Shown: positions 10,959 to 39,699 of the stretch, piece after piece | Numbering within the stretch: position 1 is the stretch's first letter | Layout of the letters: every line of letters begins with the position of its first letter | Source of the DNA: an uncultured Chryseobacterium sp. | GTDB taxonomy: Bacteria > Bacteroidota > Bacteroidia > UBA10329 | Direction: 5' to 3' | NCBI GenBank assembly: GCA_964488095.1 | Contig: CAZATP010000013.1 | Coordinates: 3,576 to 67,575 of the forward strand | DNA length: 64,000 nucleotides | Notes under the pieces: generated by a model | Databases searched by the model: none | Told to the model about the DNA's origin: nothing | The model's input: only the letters and a program-made list of their open reading frames with translations | Translations under genes and position numbers: made by a program

Positions 10959-11237
10959 TTACTTCACTGCGTCAGAAAGCTCGCTACCGGCCTTGAAACG
11001 AACCACGTTCTTGGCAGCGATCTTGATTTCTTTGCCAGTCTGTGGGTTGCGTCCAGTACGGGCTTCTCTCGTAGAAACAGAGAAAGAACCGAAGCCTACA
11101 AGAGACACACGGCCATCTTTCTTCTTCAGTTCAGCAGTAGTAACACTTACGAATGCGTCAAGTGCTTTCTTAGCATCAGCTTTAGAAAGACCAGCCTCGT
11201 TTGCAATTGCTTCAATGAGTTCTGCTTTGTTTGCCAT
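10959..11237 (-). CDS. hup: HU family nucleoid DNA-binding protein
   Basis: 92 aa, MANKAELIEAIA…GFGSF…RNPQTGKEI is the HU/IHF signature. Confidence 0.85.
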   Translation of the reverse strand: MANKAELIEAIANEAGLSKADAKKALDAFVSVTTAELKKKDGRVSLVGFGSFSVSTREARTGRNPQTGKEIKIAAKNVVRFKAGSELSDAVK

Positions 11238-11430
11238 TTTGTTTTGGTTTGTTTAATGGGTTTAACAATGATTTGCCCGACAAATATAGCCGCCTCTCCA
11301 TACGGGCTGCGGGATTGAGTATGGAACAGGGCTTTTTGTTGATAAAAGCGGGGCTTTGTTCATAACCGTGGTCTGCATGCCCCGTCAATACTGACATTCA
11401 TGCATTCTCGGCTACGAAAAACACGTAAAA

Positions 11431-12393
11431 TCACCCTGTGATGGCTGTGTCTGAGATGTCGAACCCGTTCAGGAATTCCCCGACCGTCATTCTCCTTTTT
11501 CCAGAAAGTTGCACTTCCAGCAGCGAAAGTTGCCCGTCTTTGCATTGCACATGGAGGAAAGTCCGTCCATCAGAACTCAACTGGCCCGGTGCCCCGGATG
11601 CGGAATCGGCCACCACCTGCGAGCGGAAGATTTTCAGGACGAAGACTTCGTCCCCCGTTCTAATCTCGGTGAATGCGGAAGGATAGGGCGAAAGGCCGCG
11701 GATGTGGTTGAATATATCGGCCGCGCTTCTACCCCAGTCAATGCGGCAGAAATCCTTGAAGATCTTTGGAGCACCGAAAAGCTCTTCCTGGAGAATTCCG
11801 GTCTGCGGGATGGCTGCCACATTTCCGGTTGCGATTCTTCGGACCGTTTCTACCACCAGCCGTGCCCCGATGGCCATCAAACGGTCGTGCAGTTCGCCTG
11901 CGGTTTCCTCGGGCCCGATAGGCGTTTTCTCCTGAAGGATGATGTTGCCTGTGTCAATCTCCTGCTCAAGGAAGAAGGTGGTGACCCCCGTCTCCTTGGC
12001 ACCCGAGATGATCGCGTGGTTGATAGGGGCGGCACCACGGAACTGTGGGAGCAGCGAAGCATGCAGATTGAACGTGCCTTTCGCAGGCATGGCCCAAACG
12101 GCCTGAGGCAGCATTCGGAAGGCGACCACCACTTGTAGCGTGGCTTTGTAAGACCATAACTCTTCAAGGAACGCTTCGGACCGGAGGTTCGTGGGCTGTA
12201 GCACCGGAAGACCGTGTTGCACGGCAAAGGCCTTCACAGCCGAGGGTTGCAGCTTCATTCCTCGGCCAGCGGGCCTGTCGGGCGCGGTGATCACGGCCAC
12301 CACGTTGCAGCTCGCAGCCACAAGCGCGGAAAGGGAGGCCACCGCGAACTCTGGTGTGCCCATGAATATGATACGCTCATCCGCCAATGCCAT
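11431..12393 (-). CDS. fmt: methionyl-tRNA formyltransferase
   Basis: IIFMGTPEFAV…; …NLHASLLPQFRGAAPI… formyltransferase motif. Confidence 0.85.
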   Translation of the reverse strand: MALADERIIFMGTPEFAVASLSALVAASCNVVAVITAPDRPAGRGMKLQPSAVKAFAVQHGLPVLQPTNLRSEAFLEELWSYKATLQVVVAFRMLPQAVWAMPAKGTFNLHASLLPQFRGAAPINHAIISGAKETGVTTFFLEQEIDTGNIILQEKTPIGPEETAGELHDRLMAIGARLVVETVRRIATGNVAAIPQTGILQEELFGAPKIFKDFCRIDWGRSAADIFNHIRGLSPYPSAFTEIRTGDEVFVLKIFRSQVVADSASGAPGQLSSDGRTFLHVQCKDGQLSLLEVQLSGKRRMTVGEFLNGFDISDTAITG

Positions 12394-30390: not shown

Positions 30391-30403
30391 ATTCACTCAT
30401 CTG

Positions 30404-30477
30404 TGACCCTGTAGGGATTCGAACCCCAAACCTCCTCATCCGTAGTGAGGTGCTCTATCCAGTTGAGCTACAGAGCC
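30404..30477 (-). tRNA. tRNA-Arg (anticodon ACG), 74 nt, CCA not encoded
   Basis: Manual fold on the minus strand: acceptor GGCTCTG/CAGGGTC (two G-U pairs), D-arm GCTC-AACTGGATA-GAGC, anticodon stem CCTCA/TGAGG with loop CTACGGA, T-arm TGGGG-TTCGAAT-CCCTA, discriminator A. Confidence 0.85.
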
Positions 30478-35110: not shown

Positions 35111-36337
35111 ATGATTACCAAGGTTAGAATCCGTAACTACAAGACGCTAGAGGATACCGAGCTGACGCTTGGAAGAATCAATGTCATTATCGGAGTGAAC
35201 GGAGCGGGGAAATCAAACTTGGCTGAAGCGATTGCCCTTGGGGTTGCAGGTGCCCAAGGTAAACTAGATTCGGAATATCTGACTGCAAGAGGCATTAGAC
35301 TCACTCACCCGAAGTTCATGCGTTCTGGATTTGGCCCCATCAACTCAGATCCTATCCGAATCGATTTGACCAACGACCAGAATACGTTGAAGCCTGTCAT
35401 TAACGTTGAATTGAACAATGACGGAAAACCGTATTCAAAATGGGTAAATCCCATATTGGATAGTGATAGAAAATTTCTTGAAAAGATGTTGGTGTCAATT
35501 TTCAAACCTGGGGAGCCCGATTTGTCTGAACACCCAGAAAATATTCATGAGGGCTTGTTGGATTTAAAGCGTACCGTTGTGGAGAAAAACAAGGATATGT
35601 TTGATGATCCAGAATTCGCTGATTTCATGAGATCAAGCCTTCCAGAATTCGTTAAAAATTTAGTGGAAAGAGGCAGTGAAATTGAGGATTTCGTGATTTA
35701 CAAACCAGAAGAAACGTTTTTGAGGAAATTCGATTCGCAAGGGCAGTTGGAGCCTCTTGGAATGCGAGGTGAAGGATTGCTAAAACTATTGACTGTTTTT
35801 AGCAGTGAGAAGCCAGAGATTTTGGGTGAGTTAAGGAAACATCTTAAGCTGTTTGACTGGTTTGAGGATATTAAACTAAAAGATCAGTTGATAGAAAAGG
35901 AAGTGTACTTCGATATTCAAGATAAATATCTCAATCCTGAATTGGGCTATTTTGACCAACGAAGTTCAAACGAGGGATTCCTCTATCTCGCGTTCTACAT
36001 AAGTCTGTTCCTGAGTGAAACTGCCCCGAAGAATTTTGCAATTGATAATGTTGATAATGCCCTTAACCCGAAACTCTGCACACGCTTAGTGAAGTTGCTG
36101 ACAACCTTGGCTAAGGAATATGGAAAGCAGGCCATTATTACCACTCACAATCCTGCAGTTCTAGATGGGCTTGATTTGAATGACCCAGAGCAAAAGTTGT
36201 TTGTCGTCAGTAGGAAGCGCAACGGTGCCACAAGAATATCAGAAGTGAAAGTGAAGCCTACATCTGATAAGTTGATGAAACTGTCTGAAATGTTCATGTC
36301 AGGAATGTTGGGCGGCCTTCCTAAGAATTTTGCGTGA
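35111..36337 (+). CDS. ABC/SMC/RecF/OLD-type P-loop ATPase (AAA_21/AAA_15-like), putative defence-system ATPase
   Basis: N-terminal IRNYKTL…INVIIGVNGAGKSNLAEAI is the Walker A. C-terminal …FAIDNVDNALNP… is Walker B-like with N in place of the catalytic E, followed by ITTHNP (H-loop). The gene is strongly AT-rich relative to its flanks. Confidence 0.75.
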   Translation: MITKVRIRNYKTLEDTELTLGRINVIIGVNGAGKSNLAEAIALGVAGAQGKLDSEYLTARGIRLTHPKFMRSGFGPINSDPIRIDLTNDQNTLKPVINVELNNDGKPYSKWVNPILDSDRKFLEKMLVSIFKPGEPDLSEHPENIHEGLLDLKRTVVEKNKDMFDDPEFADFMRSSLPEFVKNLVERGSEIEDFVIYKPEETFLRKFDSQGQLEPLGMRGEGLLKLLTVFSSEKPEILGELRKHLKLFDWFEDIKLKDQLIEKEVYFDIQDKYLNPELGYFDQRSSNEGFLYLAFYISLFLSETAPKNFAIDNVDNALNPKLCTRLVKLLTTLAKEYGKQAIITTHNPAVLDGLDLNDPEQKLFVVSRKRNGATRISEVKVKPTSDKLMKLSEMFMSGMLGGLPKNFA

Positions 36338-37011
36338 TGAATGTTGGCATTATCTCGGAAGGTTATACAGACCAGCTTGTTCTGGACAATATAATCATTG
36401 GGTATTTTGGCTCAGATGATTGTGTTGATGTGAAATATTTGCAGCCCCTTCGAGATGAAACTGACCTCTCAGCGCATGATGGCGGTGGTTGGGCGAACCT
36501 GATTGATTACTGTTCGGCTGAGGAGAGAATCAATTCTGCGTTGACTACAAGTGATTATATAGTGATTCATTTGGACACGGACATTCTCTCGAATCTGCAA
36601 ACTGATGTGACTGGGAATGAATCAGTGGAAGAGCTGGTCGAGAAGGCGAAGAATGTTTTGATAGAAAGAATAGCAGGCGACCTGTACAGCCAGAACGCGG
36701 AGAAGATTCTATTCGCTATTTCAGTTCACTCTATTGAGTGCTGGATATTGGTTTTGCTGGAGGACCAGCCGAAGAGGCGTAATCAAACTGTAAATTGTTT
36801 GGATAGAGTGAATAGAAAACTCAGTCCAAGGGGATATTCAATCGATCCGCGAAACAAAAACCATTTCAAGGACGAGTACCATGAACTTTCAGAGGAATTC
36901 TCTAACAAGAGAACACTGAAAAGAGTTAAGGCCAGCAATGATAGTTTGAGCATCTTCTTTGATGCCATGGACGAAAAGTGGTCGTCATTTGACTCTTGCG
37001 TAGATACCTAA
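36334..37011 (+). CDS. small partner protein of the ATPase; TOPRIM-like E…DxD pattern (DUF4276/RloB/AbiLii-like candidate)
   Basis: Start ATGATGAATG overlaps the ATPase stop. N-terminal VGIISEGYTDQ, then IVIHLDTDIL, resemble the TOPRIM Glu plus DxD arrangement. The gene shares the low G+C of the ATPase gene. Confidence 0.55.
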   Translation: MMNVGIISEGYTDQLVLDNIIIGYFGSDDCVDVKYLQPLRDETDLSAHDGGGWANLIDYCSAEERINSALTTSDYIVIHLDTDILSNLQTDVTGNESVEELVEKAKNVLIERIAGDLYSQNAEKILFAISVHSIECWILVLLEDQPKRRNQTVNCLDRVNRKLSPRGYSIDPRNKNHFKDEYHELSEEFSNKRTLKRVKASNDSLSIFFDAMDEKWSSFDSCVDT

Positions 37012-37078: not shown

Positions 37079-37723
37079 TCACCCCCCCACGAACACCCCC
37101 CGTTTCACCTCGTCCTCGGCAAAGAGCACATCGGCAGCGAGCTGAATGCGCTGCACGAAGCTCCACATGTGAAGGAAGGCGCGTTTGCGCTGCGCGGTGA
37201 GGCGGGTGCGCACGCGCTTCTTGTATTCGTGCTGCACCTCGGCATCGGTGAGGGCGTTGGCGGTGTCGAGCAGGGCCTGTGTGTGGGCGGGGGTCATGCC
37301 CTTGGCGGAGAGCTCGGGGGCGTGGTCGAGGGCCAGGAGGTGCATGGTGCGCACGGCAACGGCATAGTGGGCCGGGGCATAGCGGAACTTGACGAGGCGC
37401 TCGAAGCCGAACACCCGGAGGTCGTCCTTGGCGGTGAAGGCGAGGCTGGCATAGTAGCGCAGGTCGCGCACGGCAGCCGCGCAGGCGGCCATCTGCTCGC
37501 CCGTGACGGCCGCGCTGATCTGCTGGTCGTCCACGGTGGTCTCGTCCGTGGGCATGGTGAGGGCATCCTCGATGGCCTGCAGCCAGGCATCGCGGAAGGC
37601 GGGGCCGAGGTCGGGGTCGTAGGCCTCGAACTCGGGCAGGAACTCCTCATAGACCTTGCACATGCGCGAGGCGATGGTGAGGGCGCGGGCATCGGTGTGG
37701 CTGTAGGGGCGGGTGTTGCTCAT
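37079..37723 (-). CDS. hypothetical protein, paralogous to the N-terminal domain of the 38540-39535 product
   Basis: 214 aa. Alignable by eye to the downstream paralogue (…DPDLGPAFRDAWLQAIEDAL… vs …DSDFASPDFETDWQAAIDASL…; …AKGMTPAHTQALLDTANALTD… vs …AKGFTPTMLAEINTLTDN…). Confidence 0.55.
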   Translation of the reverse strand: MSNTRPYSHTDARALTIASRMCKVYEEFLPEFEAYDPDLGPAFRDAWLQAIEDALTMPTDETTVDDQQISAAVTGEQMAACAAAVRDLRYYASLAFTAKDDLRVFGFERLVKFRYAPAHYAVAVRTMHLLALDHAPELSAKGMTPAHTQALLDTANALTDAEVQHEYKKRVRTRLTAQRKRAFLHMWSFVQRIQLAADVLFAEDEVKRGVFVGG

Positions 37724-37984
37724 GGCGATGGGGTGTTTGTTGCGCTACGCACGTTGGTCAGCGGGTTGCAGGTGTTCGGCACGGCTCATCCTGCCGCAGA
37801 TGGCAGCATGCATGCCACGGATGGTGCTGTTCGTGCATAGGGCGGATGATTGCAGGGCACGGAAACAATATTACAAGACAAATTTATGAAGCCCCACTGA
37901 TCCGACAATAAACAGCATCCTTTCGTCATAAGAGTGCATGCTTGGTCTGGCAGGTCGCACCGATCCGATGCCGTACATCAGTTG

Positions 37985-38236
37985 TGCAAAGTGTTTTCCT
38001 TGGCCTGCAATGTATCTCCCTTCTTGTGCAATGTATGTTCCCAGAGCTGCAATGTTCATCCTGTTGTTTGCTATGTATGTCCTTTGCTATGCTATGTATC
38101 ATCCCAACTATGCATGGTTTATTCCTTGGCCTGCAATGTAATTCCCATGGCATGCTATGTATGTCCTATTCACTGTAATGTCTGTCCTTTGGTCTGCAAG
38201 ACACTATCCTTTTGATGCAGCGTGATTCCCTGCCTG
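37985..38236. repeat. tandem array of about 11-12 head-to-tail 21-bp repeats, consensus TGCAATGTATnTCCyyTnnnn
   Basis: Units at 37985, 38006, 38027, 38048, 38069, 38090, 38111, 38132, 38153, 38174 and 38195, plus a degenerate unit at 38216. Each begins TGC(A/T)ATGT and has TCC at unit positions ~12-16. The array is AT-rich. All three forward frames stay open because of repeat composition. Confidence 0.85.
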
Positions 38237-38384
38237 TTGTTGCGGTCATCTGCCGCATGGGCCAAAAAAAAACCGGAACAGTAAAGAAGTTGGGTGAAGC
38301 GGGATTTCCAGATTATTGCTTGCGGCAATGAGAACGCTGCGCTAAGTTGCTTCGGTTCCCGAAACAAGTTCGGGACAGGCTGTT

Positions 38385-38428
38385 CCTCCCTCGCAATGAC
38401 GGCCATCGGAGCGTCATTGCGAGGGAGG
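38385..38428. other. perfect 17-bp inverted repeat (extendable to ~20 bp with one G-U), 10-nt loop
   Basis: CCTCCCTCGCAATGACG gccatcggag CGTCATTGCGAGGGAGG, about 110 bp downstream of the stop of the minus-strand gene 38540-39535. No adjacent U-tract. It produces mirror-image spurious ORFs on both strands (LPRND…AVIAREE). Confidence 0.75.
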
Positions 38429-38539
38429 AACGAGGAGTGAAGCAATCTCAAACATTGCCCCAACATCTTTATCAGTCCGAAAAAAAACCGCACCCCGCGC
38501 CAAGGCGGGATGAGGTGGGTGGCGCTGTGCGCTGACCGC

Positions 38540-39535
38540 TCAGGGCATGGGCGGCATGGGCGGCATCGGTGGTGGTGAGGATGGCGGCAGGGAGGCATTG
38601 ACCACGGTGGGCTGCTTGGTCTGCTCGCGGGTGAAGGGGATCTGAATCAGCGCAAACCCTGCTGCGCTCACCTTCAGGTTGTAATTGCCCGGGGCCACCT
38701 GTGCCAGACCGAAGTTGCCGTCCTGGTCGGTGGTGGTGGTCATGTTCAGCTCCACGTTCTGCACGGTGGCGCCTGCCACAGGCACGCCCATGCTGCTCAC
38801 ATTGCCCACCACGCTATAGACGCTCGGGTTCTCCGTTCTGCGCGGGAAGAGGAAGATGTTGTATAGCAGCGGATTCTCGGCATAGATCACCTCTGATGCT
38901 TCTCTCACCCGCTGGCTGAAGCCCCATGTGGTGTTGTGCGTCACCACCCGTGCGTTGGTGTCGATGGGCGAGAGGGTGTTGAAGCTGTCCTGCGTGGCAT
39001 CGAGGGCGATGAAGTTGTCGGTCAGCGTGTTGATCTCTGCCAGCATGGTCGGGGTGAACCCCTTTGCGGCCAGGGCAGCGGCATGCTGGTTGGCCGCTTT
39101 GAACATCGACTTCATGAAGACGCGCATGCCCTCCTGCGAACCGTAGACCTCCTGATAGTCATCGAACCCGAACTTGTCGAACACCCTGCGGTTCTGTTCC
39201 GAGGCCGATGGCGGGAACGCCTTGTTGGCGAAATACTTCACCTCTTTCACCTTGAGGGTGATGGCCTTCATGGCCGTGTTCACATGTGCGGTATGGATGC
39301 CCAACTGGTCGTCCCGCGTTTCGGCCGTTCCCACCATCAGACTGGCATCGATGGCCGCCTGCCAATCGGTCTCAAAGTCGGGGCTGGCGAAATCGGAGTC
39401 GAACGCGGTGAAATCGCCCTGATAGGTGATGAAAAGATGGCGATGCATGGATGCGAAAGTCAGCATTGCTGCATCAGATAGATTGTACTGGCGTTTTTCC
39501 ATAGCTTTTAGATTGAGTTTAGAATGAAAAGACAC
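38540..39535 (-). CDS. hypothetical protein: N-terminal domain paralogous to 37079-37723, then a CarboxypepD_reg-like beta-sandwich and a Pro-rich tail (PPSSPPPMPPMPPMP)
   Basis: …VVGNVSSMGVPVAGATVQNVELNMTTTTDQDGNFGLAQVAPGNYNLKVSAAGFA… is a carboxypeptidase-regulatory-like fold motif. The C-terminal PMP repeats are encoded by GGCATGGGC repeats. Confidence 0.6.
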   Translation of the reverse strand: MSFHSKLNLKAMEKRQYNLSDAAMLTFASMHRHLFITYQGDFTAFDSDFASPDFETDWQAAIDASLMVGTAETRDDQLGIHTAHVNTAMKAITLKVKEVKYFANKAFPPSASEQNRRVFDKFGFDDYQEVYGSQEGMRVFMKSMFKAANQHAAALAAKGFTPTMLAEINTLTDNFIALDATQDSFNTLSPIDTNARVVTHNTTWGFSQRVREASEVIYAENPLLYNIFLFPRRTENPSVYSVVGNVSSMGVPVAGATVQNVELNMTTTTDQDGNFGLAQVAPGNYNLKVSAAGFALIQIPFTREQTKQPTVVNASLPPSSPPPMPPMPPMP

Positions 39536-39699
39536 GCAATTTTATGAATAACGAACAAATGGATGAAAACATGCATAAATATCAGAAGTAAAATGGCGGC
39601 CCTCTTCCCGTGCATCTGCATAATGTGAACAAGCACGATCGCCCACACCCACAGAGGTGAAAACTGACTAAGTTTGTACAGAACTCAAACACAGACCCC

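What the first reader, a model, noticed from the sequence alone, without database searches (positions are those of the whole stretch)
37985..38236. Eleven to twelve contiguous 21-bp AT-rich tandem repeats (TGCAATGTATnTCC…) in a GC-rich genome, between two paralogous genes
The units are exactly in phase at 21 bp, equal to two helical turns, and each carries a conserved TGCAATGTA head and a TCC core. The array is far AT-richer than the surrounding DNA and sits about 260 bp upstream of the start of gene 37079-37723, downstream of its paralogue. The units are contiguous with no unique spacers, so this is not a CRISPR array. Periodicity at two helical turns with a conserved half is what iteron-like arrays or phased regulator-binding arrays look like. 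The alternative is a minisatellite that could drive phase or length variation. The three open forward frames would encode a Cys-rich heptad peptide (CNVxPxx)n, but the low G+C and codon usage argue against translation.
Basis: seen in the sequence. Interest (0 to 1): 0.7.

Follow-up and report, generated by a model that had tools for sequence, protein, structure and literature searches.

The report
Two-armed 21-bp repeat array upstream gene
The 21-bp repeats are real, non-coding, and are one arm of a roughly 510-bp two-armed array of phased sites that always sits just upstream of genes of one large uncharacterised Bacteroidota protein family, so it is most likely a dedicated control region whose reader is still unknown.

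Summary
Window 37985-38236 holds 12 contiguous 21-bp units (gene strand: nnnnnnGGGAnnnACATTGCA), GC about 0.43 against 0.65-0.70 in the flanks, lying between two paralogous genes. It is only half of the feature. The 261 bp between the array and the ATG at 37723 are also 21-bp periodic and carry the same core in inverted orientation (TGCAAT, four copies in phase). The same layout recurs at about 10 other loci that encode relatives of the 214-aa protein (22-99 % identity; profile search: 929 clusters). The layout is a forward arm of 5-12 units, then an inverted arm, then the gene. The period is always 21 bp, but the unit sequence is specific to each lineage. In about 200 kb of fetched DNA, such tracts occur almost only upstream of family genes. 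Translation is rejected. A conserved sense-RNA hairpin, strong intrinsic curvature, a replication iteron, CRISPR and known Rfam families are not supported. Copy number is identical in three strain pairs, and substitutions avoid the unit core (P=0.002). Best reading (about 0.35): a phased, two-orientation DNA binding platform that encloses the promoter and is read by a co-evolving factor, possibly the gene's own helical-bundle product. The mechanism is unproven. The element appears undescribed.

The parts
37985..38236 (-). Forward arm: 12 contiguous 21-bp units, gene-strand consensus nnnnnnGGGAnnnACATTGCA. It is A-rich on the gene strand (A 0.38, T 0.18).
   Evidence: Same unit count and register in L003.
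37724..37984 (-). Inverted arm and leader: a degenerate 21-bp periodic tract running to the ATG. It carries the unit core in reverse orientation (TGCAAT, up to 1 mismatch) at 37938-37933, 37875-37870, 37854-37849 and 37770-37765, all in one phase. There are no forward-orientation cores.
   Evidence: Lag 21 is the top lag of 56 (z=3.7; 0 of 500 shuffles reach it). The PWM of the forward units gives one inverted hit of 9.4 bits against a 95 % null of 5.9. The arm consensus retains TGCA.
37879..37908 (-). Candidate Bacteroidota-type sigma-A promoter: TTG (37908-37906), 19 nt, TAAATTTG (37886-37879). It lies between the arms, just upstream of the strongest inverted unit.
   Evidence: Motif scan. 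TAnnTTTG boxes occur at similar distances from the ATG in L003, L004 and L007 (163-198 nt). This is a consensus match only, and the consensus is taken from my own knowledge.
37802..37817 (-). Sigma-54-like GG-N10-GC element, TGGCATGCATGCTGCC, 94 nt upstream of the ATG. L004 has AGGCATGTCGCTTGCC at 93 nt.
   Evidence: The evidence is weak: matches of this or better quality (9/11 or more) occur about 15 times by chance in the window, and no GAFTGA activator is encoded in it.
37079..37723 (-). Downstream gene: the 214-aa member (short form) of the uncharacterised helical-bundle family that the array accompanies.
   Evidence: 929 clusters at E<=1e-3; pLDDT 96.6, all helical. No Pfam, PHROG or PADLOC hit.
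38540..39535 (-). Upstream paralogue (long form): the family domain plus a C-terminal CarboxypepD_reg beta-sandwich and a PPMPPMP tail. The likely true start is the ATG at 39502. Its own upstream region is not 21-bp periodic.
38491..38512 (-). Intrinsic terminator of the upstream paralogue. In the relatives L004, L007 and L012 the forward arm begins no more than about 40 nt after it.
38265..38479 (.). A MITE-like insertion of about 215 bp that separates the terminator from the array in this lineage only. It is not part of the element.
   Evidence: Perfect 20-nt inverted repeat at 38382-38401 / 38412-38431 and a duplicated CGGTTTTTTTT. The insertion is absent from L004, L007 and L012.

Best explanation
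The array is the upstream arm of a cis-acting DNA control region of about 510 bp that belongs to the 214-aa gene. The region is built from 21-bp units, so one recognition core (here ACATTGCA, plus GGA in the forward arm) recurs every two helical turns on one face of the helix. Twelve units point toward the gene. Roughly twelve degenerate units in the opposite orientation then fill the space down to the start codon, and the promoter lies between or inside the arms. I infer that a sequence-specific factor binds these cores cooperatively along both arms and so sets transcription of the gene. Occlusion of the promoter, or folding the two arms together over it, is the most likely mode. The unit sequence differs in every lineage while the period, the two-arm layout and the partner gene family stay constant. 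Shown: the anatomy, its conservation, the exclusive association with the gene family, the non-coding nature, and core-versus-spacer constraint. Inferred: action at the DNA level, protein binding, the identity of the binder, and the sign of regulation.
For: (1) The same layout (forward arm, inverted arm, family gene) occurs at the window, L003, L004, L007, L012, L013/L014, L019, L029 (a long-form gene) and L031. L017, L020, L021 and L027 carry degenerate or partial versions. The period is always 21 bp and the unit sequences are unrelated. (2) In about 201 kb of fetched DNA, lag-21 tracts lie almost only upstream of family genes. The one exception is a weak tract (score 0.52) at the 3' end of the family gene in L027/L028. 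(3) Conservation is limited to a core. Between the window and L003, 14 of 21 forward-arm substitutions fall in the 7 spacer positions (P=0.0018). Arm divergence is 8.3 % against 18-22 % at four-fold sites of neighbouring genes. (4) The two arms share only the unit consensus. Mirror-image unit pairs are no more alike than non-mirror pairs in 6 of 6 loci, as expected for one motif used in two orientations rather than a maintained hairpin register. (5) Hairpin potential is absent here (z +1.4 / +2.0). Where it exists, it is equal or better on the non-coding strand, which argues against selection on the sense RNA. (6) The upstream gene's terminator abuts the forward arm, which leaves no room for a separate promoter. 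A TTG-N19-TAAATTTG promoter match lies between the arms, with the best inverted unit at its predicted start site. (7) Copy number is stable in three strain pairs. (8) There are weak hints that the family could bind nucleic acid. K169, R172 and R179 are invariant and T176 nearly invariant, all on one face of a 56-residue helix. Many members carry Lys/Arg-rich N-terminal tails.
Confidence: 0.35

Rival explanations
1. Structured leader RNA. Both arms are transcribed as the 5' UTR and pair into a long imperfect hairpin whose base lies next to the start codon. This hairpin would control mRNA stability or translation.
For: The fold is far more stable than shuffles in L019 (z -13.3; -9.8), L013 (-6.5), L031 (-7.1) and L029 (-4.3). 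The arms are of similar length, and the inverted arm ends roughly 20-90 nt before the ATG. In L031, a by-eye reading gives TTTG-N21-TAATTTTTG at the start of the forward arm. This has one extra base compared with the TAnnTTTG consensus.
Against: There is no excess structure in the window, L003 or L004 (z +1.4, +0.6, +0.2) and only weak structure in L007 and L012. The opposite strand folds as well or better (L007 -6.2 against -2.3; L029 -7.3 against -4.3). There is no mirror-register similarity between the arms. Ten forward-arm changes between L007 and L010 are matched by only 4 leader changes. A terminator directly precedes the forward arm. No Rfam family matches.
Confidence: 0.2
2. By-product with no function. 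The array is a self-propagating palindromic minisatellite, created by slippage and template switching, that happens to persist upstream of these genes.
For: The unit sequence drifts freely between lineages. The inverted arm is strongly decayed here. Units are exchanged within arrays: the L007/L010 variants match neighbouring units. Some family genes lack a clear array (L016 has an IS fragment upstream; L018 has none; L021 is weak).
Against: The association with one protein family is almost exclusive across relatives down to 22 % identity. The period is a strict 21 bp in every case. Copy number is unchanged in three strain pairs. Substitutions avoid the core (P=0.002). Orientation relative to the gene is constant.
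Confidence: 0.12
3. Repeat RNA that titrates or neutralises a protein. This would resemble a type III antitoxin (ToxI) or a CsrB-like sponge, with each 21-nt unit as one binding site.
For: The forward arm is A-rich and predicted to be unstructured (z > 0). It has one GGA per unit. It lies upstream of a protein gene. The neighbourhood is rich in defence and toxin-antitoxin genes: PDC-M31 here, PIN/NYN in L004 and RES in L027.
Against: No promoter was found upstream of the arm, which follows a terminator. GGA is not conserved in other lineages. The inverted arm is unexplained by this model. The protein is not ToxN-like. No Rfam hit was found. It is my own knowledge, not tested here, that CsrA is generally absent from Bacteroidota.
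Confidence: 0.07
4. Recombination or DNA-structure element. The two arms would promote cruciform or slipped structures, or homologous exchange. This would be analogous to the repeat tracts upstream of antigen-variation cassettes (my own knowledge) and would move or homogenise the family gene.
For: The short gene plus the last 81 bp of leader are almost identical between the window and L003 (1.1-1.2 % divergence; four-fold sites 1.7 %), whereas neighbouring genes differ by 18-22 % at four-fold sites. This pattern fits recent exchange bounded by the array. Variable cargo lies next to the gene.
Against: Only two family genes are seen in this window, and the long paralogue has no array. There is no evidence of shared arrays between paralogues, and no recombinase was seen in the flanks examined.
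Confidence: 0.08
5. Iteron-type replication origin or plasmid-style centromere.
For: Direct repeats phased at two helical turns, with inverted copies next to the adjacent gene's promoter, resemble the P1, pSC101 and R6K replicons (my own knowledge).
Against: The locus is chromosomal on a 1.67-Mb contig with conserved synteny. There is no Rep, ParA or ParB neighbour. The family has no tblastn hit in the plasmid or phage collections and was not found in viral contigs. The adjacent protein is not winged-helix or RHH.
Confidence: 0.03
6. The array is translated into a heptad-repeat peptide.
For: One homologous gene-strand frame is open across the arrays of L004, L007, L012 and L013. Gene callers call ORFs there, or fuse the array to the gene as in P0038.
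Against: Every gene-strand frame has stops in the window, L003, L019, L029 and L027. Every window-versus-L003 change in that frame is non-synonymous, and L003 gains stops. The information profile shows no 3-nt periodicity. The peptide sequence is not conserved between lineages.
Confidence: 0.02

Closest known systems
Iteron arrays with Rep autoregulatory inverted repeats (P1, pSC101, R6K, F replicons; my own knowledge)
   Same: Both have contiguous 17-22-bp direct repeats phased at about two helical turns, inverted copies of the repeat at the promoter of the adjacent gene, and a repeat sequence that co-varies with the adjacent protein.
   Different: There is no Rep-like winged-helix protein, no plasmid or phage context, and no origin features. 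Here there are 12 + ~12 units that fill the whole intergenic region as two convergent arms. The partner is a helical-bundle protein of unknown function.
Centromere/operator repeat arrays bound cooperatively by small repressors (omega heptads of pSM19035; ParR-parC of R1; my own knowledge)
   Same: Both have many contiguous short repeats in direct and inverted orientation upstream of a promoter, and cooperative coating of one DNA face would explain the strict phasing.
   Different: Those units are 7-11 bp, are read by ribbon-helix-helix dimers and belong to partition operons. No RHH or ParA-type gene is present here, and the unit is 21 bp.
Operators with 21-bp site spacing (LytTR regulators: 9-bp repeats plus a 12-bp spacer; ArgR: 18-bp ARG boxes plus 3 bp; my own knowledge)
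   Same: The centre-to-centre spacing of sites is identical at 21 bp, which places successive sites on one helical face.
   Different: Those operators have 2-3 sites, not 12 + ~12. Their motifs are conserved across taxa because the regulator is global. No such regulator gene is linked here, and the motif is lineage-specific.
Type III toxin-antitoxin loci (ToxIN, AbiQ; my own knowledge)
   Same: Both have a tandem repeat array immediately upstream of a protein gene, with a repeat sequence specific to each protein lineage, and both are often found in defence neighbourhoods.
   Different: ToxI-type units are 34-45 nt in 2-6 copies. They are transcribed from their own promoter, are followed by a terminator, and are partnered with a ToxN-fold endoribonuclease. 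None of these features is found here, and type III loci have no inverted arm.

Membership tests
Iteron-type replication origin | Tandem 17-22-bp direct repeats phased at about two helical turns | tested here: met
   12 units of exactly 21 bp.
Iteron-type replication origin | Adjacent gene encodes a Rep initiator (winged-helix domains) | tested here: not met
Iteron-type replication origin | Resides on a plasmid, phage or other autonomous replicon | tested here: not met
   The syntenic locus lies on a 1.67-Mb contig. The family has no tblastn hit in the plasmid or phage collections and was not found in viral contigs.
CRISPR array | Repeats separated by unique spacers of similar length | tested here: not met
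   The units are contiguous, and each 21-bp unit is itself the repeat.
Protein-coding heptad repeat | An open reading frame maintained across the array, with purifying selection on it | tested here: not met
   Stops occur in every gene-strand frame here and in L003, L019, L029 and L027. All strain differences are non-synonymous.
Type III toxin-antitoxin (ToxIN-like) | ToxN/AbiQ-fold endoribonuclease encoded downstream of the repeats | tested here: not met
   The protein is an all-helical bundle. There is no PADLOC hit.
Type III toxin-antitoxin (ToxIN-like) | Repeats transcribed from their own promoter and followed by a terminator before the toxin gene | tested here: inconclusive
   No promoter match lies upstream of the arm, which follows the neighbouring gene's terminator. 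Only a weak hairpin plus T-rich stretch follows the arm (by eye). There are no transcript data.
CsrB/RsmZ-type sponge RNA or any Rfam family | Match to a curated covariance model | tested here: not met
   No Rfam hit at gathering score in the window or in 8 related loci. Nothing relevant appears at E<=1 over 37600-38600.
Structured RNA hairpin leader | Fold more stable than shuffles on the transcribed strand, maintained across relatives | tested here: not met
   Window z is +1.4. Among relatives z ranges from +0.6 to -13. The antisense strand folds as well or better. There is no mirror register.
Sigma-54 promoter with upstream activator sites | GG-N10-GC (-24/-12) element and a linked enhancer-binding protein | tested here: inconclusive
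   TGGCATGCATGCTGCC lies at -94, with a positional match in L004. Matches of this or better quality are common by chance, and no GAFTGA protein is encoded in the window.
Bacteroidota invertible promoter (inverton) | Promoter segment bracketed by inverted repeats and found in both orientations, with a linked recombinase | tested here: inconclusive
   A 17-nt, 82 % inverted repeat brackets the region (37792-37808 / 38241-38257). Orientation is the same in the window and in L003. No recombinase was seen among the flanking ORFs scanned. Only one strain pair was compared.
Intrinsically curved upstream DNA | Predicted curvature far above the genome background | tested here: not met
   The end-to-end/contour ratio is 0.88-0.91 with the Bolshoy-Trifonov set (window median 0.96, 1st percentile 0.815) and 0.96-0.99 with the De Santis set. 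Both parameter sets were recalled from memory.
Hypervariable minisatellite (VNTR) | Copy number differs between close strains | tested here: not met
   12 against 12 (window/L003), 11 against 11 (L007/L010), and the same count in L013/L014. Only three pairs were available.

The most novel reading that the evidence does not exclude
This would be a previously undescribed class of cis element: two convergent arms of 5-12 phased 21-bp units that fill the whole upstream region of genes of a large uncharacterised Bacteroidota family (helical bundle, with or without a CarboxypepD_reg domain). The family protein would have a new nucleic-acid-binding fold. It would recognise its own lineage-specific units and polymerise along both arms, zipping them together over the promoter. 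That would make a self-contained, co-evolving protein and array module, comparable in logic to Rep/iterons or ParR/parC but chromosomal and unrelated in sequence and fold.
Probability: 0.2. Interest if true: 0.8.

Novelty: new variant of a known kind. Interest (0 to 1): 0.6.

Why it matters
If the two-armed array is a dedicated control platform, it defines a widespread regulatory architecture (929 protein clusters at 50 % identity in the profile search) in Bacteroidota, a phylum whose transcriptional control is poorly charted. It also gives a handle on a large 'hypothetical protein' family. The strict two-turn phasing over about 500 bp, combined with free drift of the recognised sequence, makes it a natural system for studying co-evolution of a DNA (or RNA) code and its reader. 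In practical terms, these arrays break short-read assemblies: several contigs end at or close to them. They also generate spurious ORF calls and N-terminal extensions, so recognising them would improve annotation.

Tried and rejected
1. Translation of the repeats was rejected.

2. Intrinsic DNA curvature was tested with two wedge-model parameter sets. The array is not an outlier.

3. A single conserved RNA hairpin is not supported. The window clade has z >= 0, both strands fold equally well, and there is no mirror register.

4. The units as tandem sigma-54 promoters: two units score 9/11 against TGGCAC-N5-TTGCA. Relatives lack the GG/GC, about 15 equal matches occur by chance, and no activator is present.

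5. Known RNA families: none found.

6. Plasmid, phage or viral origin of the family or of the repeat: none found.

7. Functional annotation of the protein. Pfam, PHROGs, PADLOC and PDB sequence search are empty. NCBIfam gives only a weak match (E about 2e-4) of two distant members to the 'PQLLE family'. Sources name the proteins 'hypothetical' or 'carboxypeptidase regulatory-like domain-containing'.

8. Structure. The first AF2 run (7 sequences) was unusable (pLDDT 46). The second was confident, but its fold matches are generic.

9. Literature searches for PQLLE and for 21-bp repeats in Bacteroidetes or Flavobacterium found nothing relevant.

10. Wider locus sampling was limited. The genome and metagenome scans returned only 1 and 6 loci because the back-translated patterns were narrow. 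One alignment was too diverse to use. The afdb50 fold library was unavailable.

Full report
OBSERVATION. Window 37985-38236 consists of 12 head-to-tail 21-bp units. The repeat finder puts the copies at multiples of 21 bp. TRF sees the tract only as a 63-bp period (37996-38162, score 150), because the units are 60-70 % alike. On the strand of the flanking genes (-), the consensus is nnnnnnGGGAnnnACATTGCA. Information is concentrated in GGGA and AC.TTGCA, and there is a free 6-7-nt spacer. The head-plus-core pattern occurs 7 times in the array and once elsewhere in the window; 2.4 hits are expected and 0 of 100 shuffles reach 8. No other lag-21 tract exists in the 64 kb. GC is 0.43-0.46, against 0.65-0.70 in gene 37079-37723. 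The flanking genes, 37079-37723 (214 aa) and 38540-39535 (331 aa), both on the - strand, are paralogues (29 % identity, E=5e-18).

THE FEATURE IS LARGER THAN REPORTED. The 261 bp between the array and the ATG at 37723 are themselves 21-bp periodic. Lag 21 is the best of 56 lags (z=3.7), and 0 of 500 shuffles reach it. In this stretch the unit core appears only in inverted orientation. TGCAAT (up to 1 mismatch) lies at 37938, 37875, 37854 and 37770, all in one phase modulo 21. There is one out-of-phase hit and no forward-orientation core. The background is 1.2 hits per 261 nt. A PWM built from the forward units gives one significant inverted hit of 9.4 bits, against a 95 % null maximum of 5.9. 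The element is thus a forward arm (12 units) followed by a degenerate inverted arm (about 12 units) that ends at the start codon.

COMPARATIVE EVIDENCE. The 214-aa protein at first seemed rare: 6 word-indexed homologues. A profile search then found 929 clusters at E<=1e-3 and 593 at E<=1e-10. These fall into two architectures, about 215-240 aa and about 300-400 aa, the longer carrying C-terminal CarboxypepD_reg domains. Source names are 'hypothetical protein' or 'carboxypeptidase regulatory-like domain-containing protein [Flavobacteriales bacterium]'. One genomic locus is a Flavobacteriales MAG, and neighbours include T9SS-tailed and TonB proteins, so the taxon is Bacteroidota. Nearly every locus with enough intact upstream sequence shows the same anatomy with a different unit.
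- L003 (99 % protein identity): the same 12 units.
- L004 (85 %): GGGGAAnTAnnCTACACG x11.
- L007 and L010 (69 %): alternating AAGATGCTACGCTACACG / AAGATGCAACACAACACG x11, then about 10 in-phase inverted units TGTAGCAnnGCA.
- L012 (68 %): TTAGGAAAAGTTCATCAnGC x11.
- L013 and L014: AAAAGTTGATATACnACAT x6, then 5 in-phase inverted units.
- L019: 12 forward TGCGATGGTCTCCAAAnnnAA, then inverted copies.
- L029, a long-form gene: 7 forward CAATCTAATnnACTGACAnAA plus 8 inverted.
- L031: 5 forward units with core ATTAGACGAAG plus 6 inverted with core GTCTAAT.
- L017, L020, L021 and L027: degenerate or partial versions.
- L016 has a transposase fragment where the array would be, and L018 shows no 21-bp periodicity upstream of its match.

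All leaders are 21-bp periodic. Across 201 kb of fetched DNA, lag-21 tracts occur only upstream of family genes, apart from one weak tract at the 3' end of the gene in L027/L028. In the window's clade the upstream long paralogue has no such tract, so the array belongs to the downstream gene.

WHAT IT IS NOT.

Coding. A homologous frame is open in four lineages, and gene callers annotate it. Even so, every gene-strand frame has stops in the window, L003, L019, L029 and L027. All window-versus-L003 differences in that frame are non-synonymous, and L003 gains stops. The information profile has no codon periodicity.

Conserved sense-RNA hairpin. z-scores run from +1.4/+2.0 (window) and +0.6/+2.0 (L003) through 0.2, -2.3 and -1.7 to -4.3, -6.5, -7.1 and -9.8 (L019; -13.3 with the tool's own shuffles). 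The antisense strand folds as well or better. Mirror-image unit pairs are no more similar than non-mirror pairs in any of six loci, so the arms share a motif rather than a pairing register.

Known RNA. None.

Intrinsic curvature. The array is not an outlier with two wedge-model sets (the parameters were recalled from memory).

Mobile replicon. The locus is chromosomal (1.67-Mb contig) and syntenic. The family has no tblastn hit in the plasmid or phage collections and was not found in viral contigs, and the repeat pattern is absent from viral contigs.

VNTR. Copy number is identical in three strain pairs.

Sigma-54 array. Two units score 9/11, but relatives lack the GG/GC, such matches are common by chance, and no GAFTGA activator is present.

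CONSTRAINT. Between the window and L003 the forward arm differs at 21 of 252 positions (8.3 %). The distal leader differs at 18 of 180 (10 %) and the proximal 81 bp at 1 (1.2 %). Fourteen of the 21 arm substitutions fall in the 7 spacer positions (binomial P=0.0018). Four-fold-site divergence is 18.4 % and 22.3 % in two neighbouring genes, but only 6.4 % in the long paralogue and 1.7 % in the short gene. The array is therefore constrained relative to the genome, though not relative to its unusually conserved flanks. L007 and L010 differ at 10 of 231 arm positions against 4 of 232 leader positions. The variants are borrowed from neighbouring units, which points to intra-array conversion.

MECHANISM.

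What is shown. The element is non-coding and built from a short core repeated every two helical turns. The core is used in two orientations that converge upstream of one gene family. The core sequence is lineage-specific and is under purifying selection relative to the spacer.

What is inferred. Action is most likely at the DNA level, because the upstream terminator abuts the forward arm. In addition, a TTG-N19-TAAATTTG match to the Bacteroidota sigma-A consensus (from my own knowledge) lies between the arms at 37908-37879, and TAnnTTTG boxes lie at similar distances from the ATG in L003, L004 and L007. The best inverted unit sits at the predicted start site. The strand symmetry of the folding potential points the same way. 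A lineage-specific core implies a co-evolving reader, and the only constantly linked gene is the family gene itself.

What I commit to. Cooperative, face-specific binding along both arms that controls the enclosed promoter, probably autoregulatory (confidence 0.35). The main weakness is that no DNA-binding fold is recognisable in the protein. The rivals are a structured leader RNA (0.20), a functionless palindromic minisatellite (0.12), a recombination or structure element (0.08), a repeat RNA that titrates a protein (0.07), an iteron or centromere (0.03) and a coding repeat (0.02). The remainder is unassigned.

COMPARISON AND NOVELTY. In logic the element is closest to iterons with Rep-promoter inverted repeats and to omega/ParR-type operator-centromere arrays. 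It shares exact 21-bp site spacing with LytTR and ArgR operators (all from my own knowledge). It fails the defining membership tests for iteron origins (no Rep, no replicon), type III TA (wrong protein fold and unit size), CRISPR and Rfam families. I found no description of it in the literature searched. I rate it a new variant of a known kind (a phased repeat operator or iteron-like platform), with a 0.2 chance that it is a genuinely new protein and array recognition module.

Noticed in passing
window 38265-38479: A MITE-like insertion of about 215 bp lies between the long paralogue's terminator and the array. It has a perfect 20-nt inverted repeat (38382-38401 / 38412-38431) and is flanked by a duplicated CGGTTTTTTTT. 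It is present in L003 and absent from L004, L007 and L012. An inverted repeat with the same CGTCATTGCGAGG core occurs in the unrelated locus L029 (1894-1960).
   Followed up: partly
window 35111-37011 (+): An AT-rich (GC about 0.40) two-gene island matches the PADLOC candidate defence system PDC-M31 (AAA_21 ATPase, E=1e-66, plus an RloB-like protein, E=1e-12). Relatives carry different cargo in the same slot: an unknown 365-aa gene, PIN plus NYN, Kinase-PolyVal, or TPR plus AAA_22. This marks a variable defence/TA hotspot beside the family gene.
   Followed up: partly
window 37079-37804 versus L003: The 214-aa gene and the last 81 bp of its leader are almost identical between the two strains (four-fold sites 1.7 %; leader 1 of 81). 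The long paralogue is at 6.4 %, whereas neighbouring genes differ by 18-22 % at four-fold sites. This suggests recent exchange or unusually strong nucleotide-level constraint.
   Followed up: partly
family proteins P0055, P0056, P0063, P0099, P0130, P0134, P0136, P0141, P0143, P0159: Many family members carry a Lys/Arg-rich N-terminal tail of 20-35 residues (for example KRKRIVKRER and KKKKTRKK) that the window protein lacks. This may be a nucleic-acid- or membrane-binding arm.
   Followed up: no
L004 1479-1742; L007 5540-5779; L013 5459-5791; proteins P0038, P0180, P0181: Gene callers annotate the repeat arrays as small ORFs or fuse them to the family gene as N-terminal extensions. Several short-read contigs also end at or close to the arrays (L001, L002, L005, L006, L008, L009). 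Both are annotation and assembly artefacts caused by this element.
   Followed up: partly
window ~11200-11500 and ~39365-39650: These are the most strongly curved 231-bp segments of the window in both wedge models. The second lies over the 5' end and the AT-rich upstream region of the long paralogue. The model parameters were recalled from memory.
   Followed up: no
window 38544-38566: The 9-bp tandem repeat GGCATGGGC x2.6 encodes the C-terminal PPMPPMP tail of the long paralogue. The tail's length and sequence differ between relatives (P0007-P0013).
   Followed up: no
window 30403-30477 (-): tRNA-Arg (ACG) lies immediately downstream of the 1477-aa gene. It is the only Rfam or ARAGORN hit in the window.
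   Followed up: no
L031 461-800: There are several copies of a short REP-like hairpin (GCTCCGATGGAGC, GCTCCTACGGAGC, GCTCCGGAGGAGC) upstream of that locus's array.
   Followed up: no
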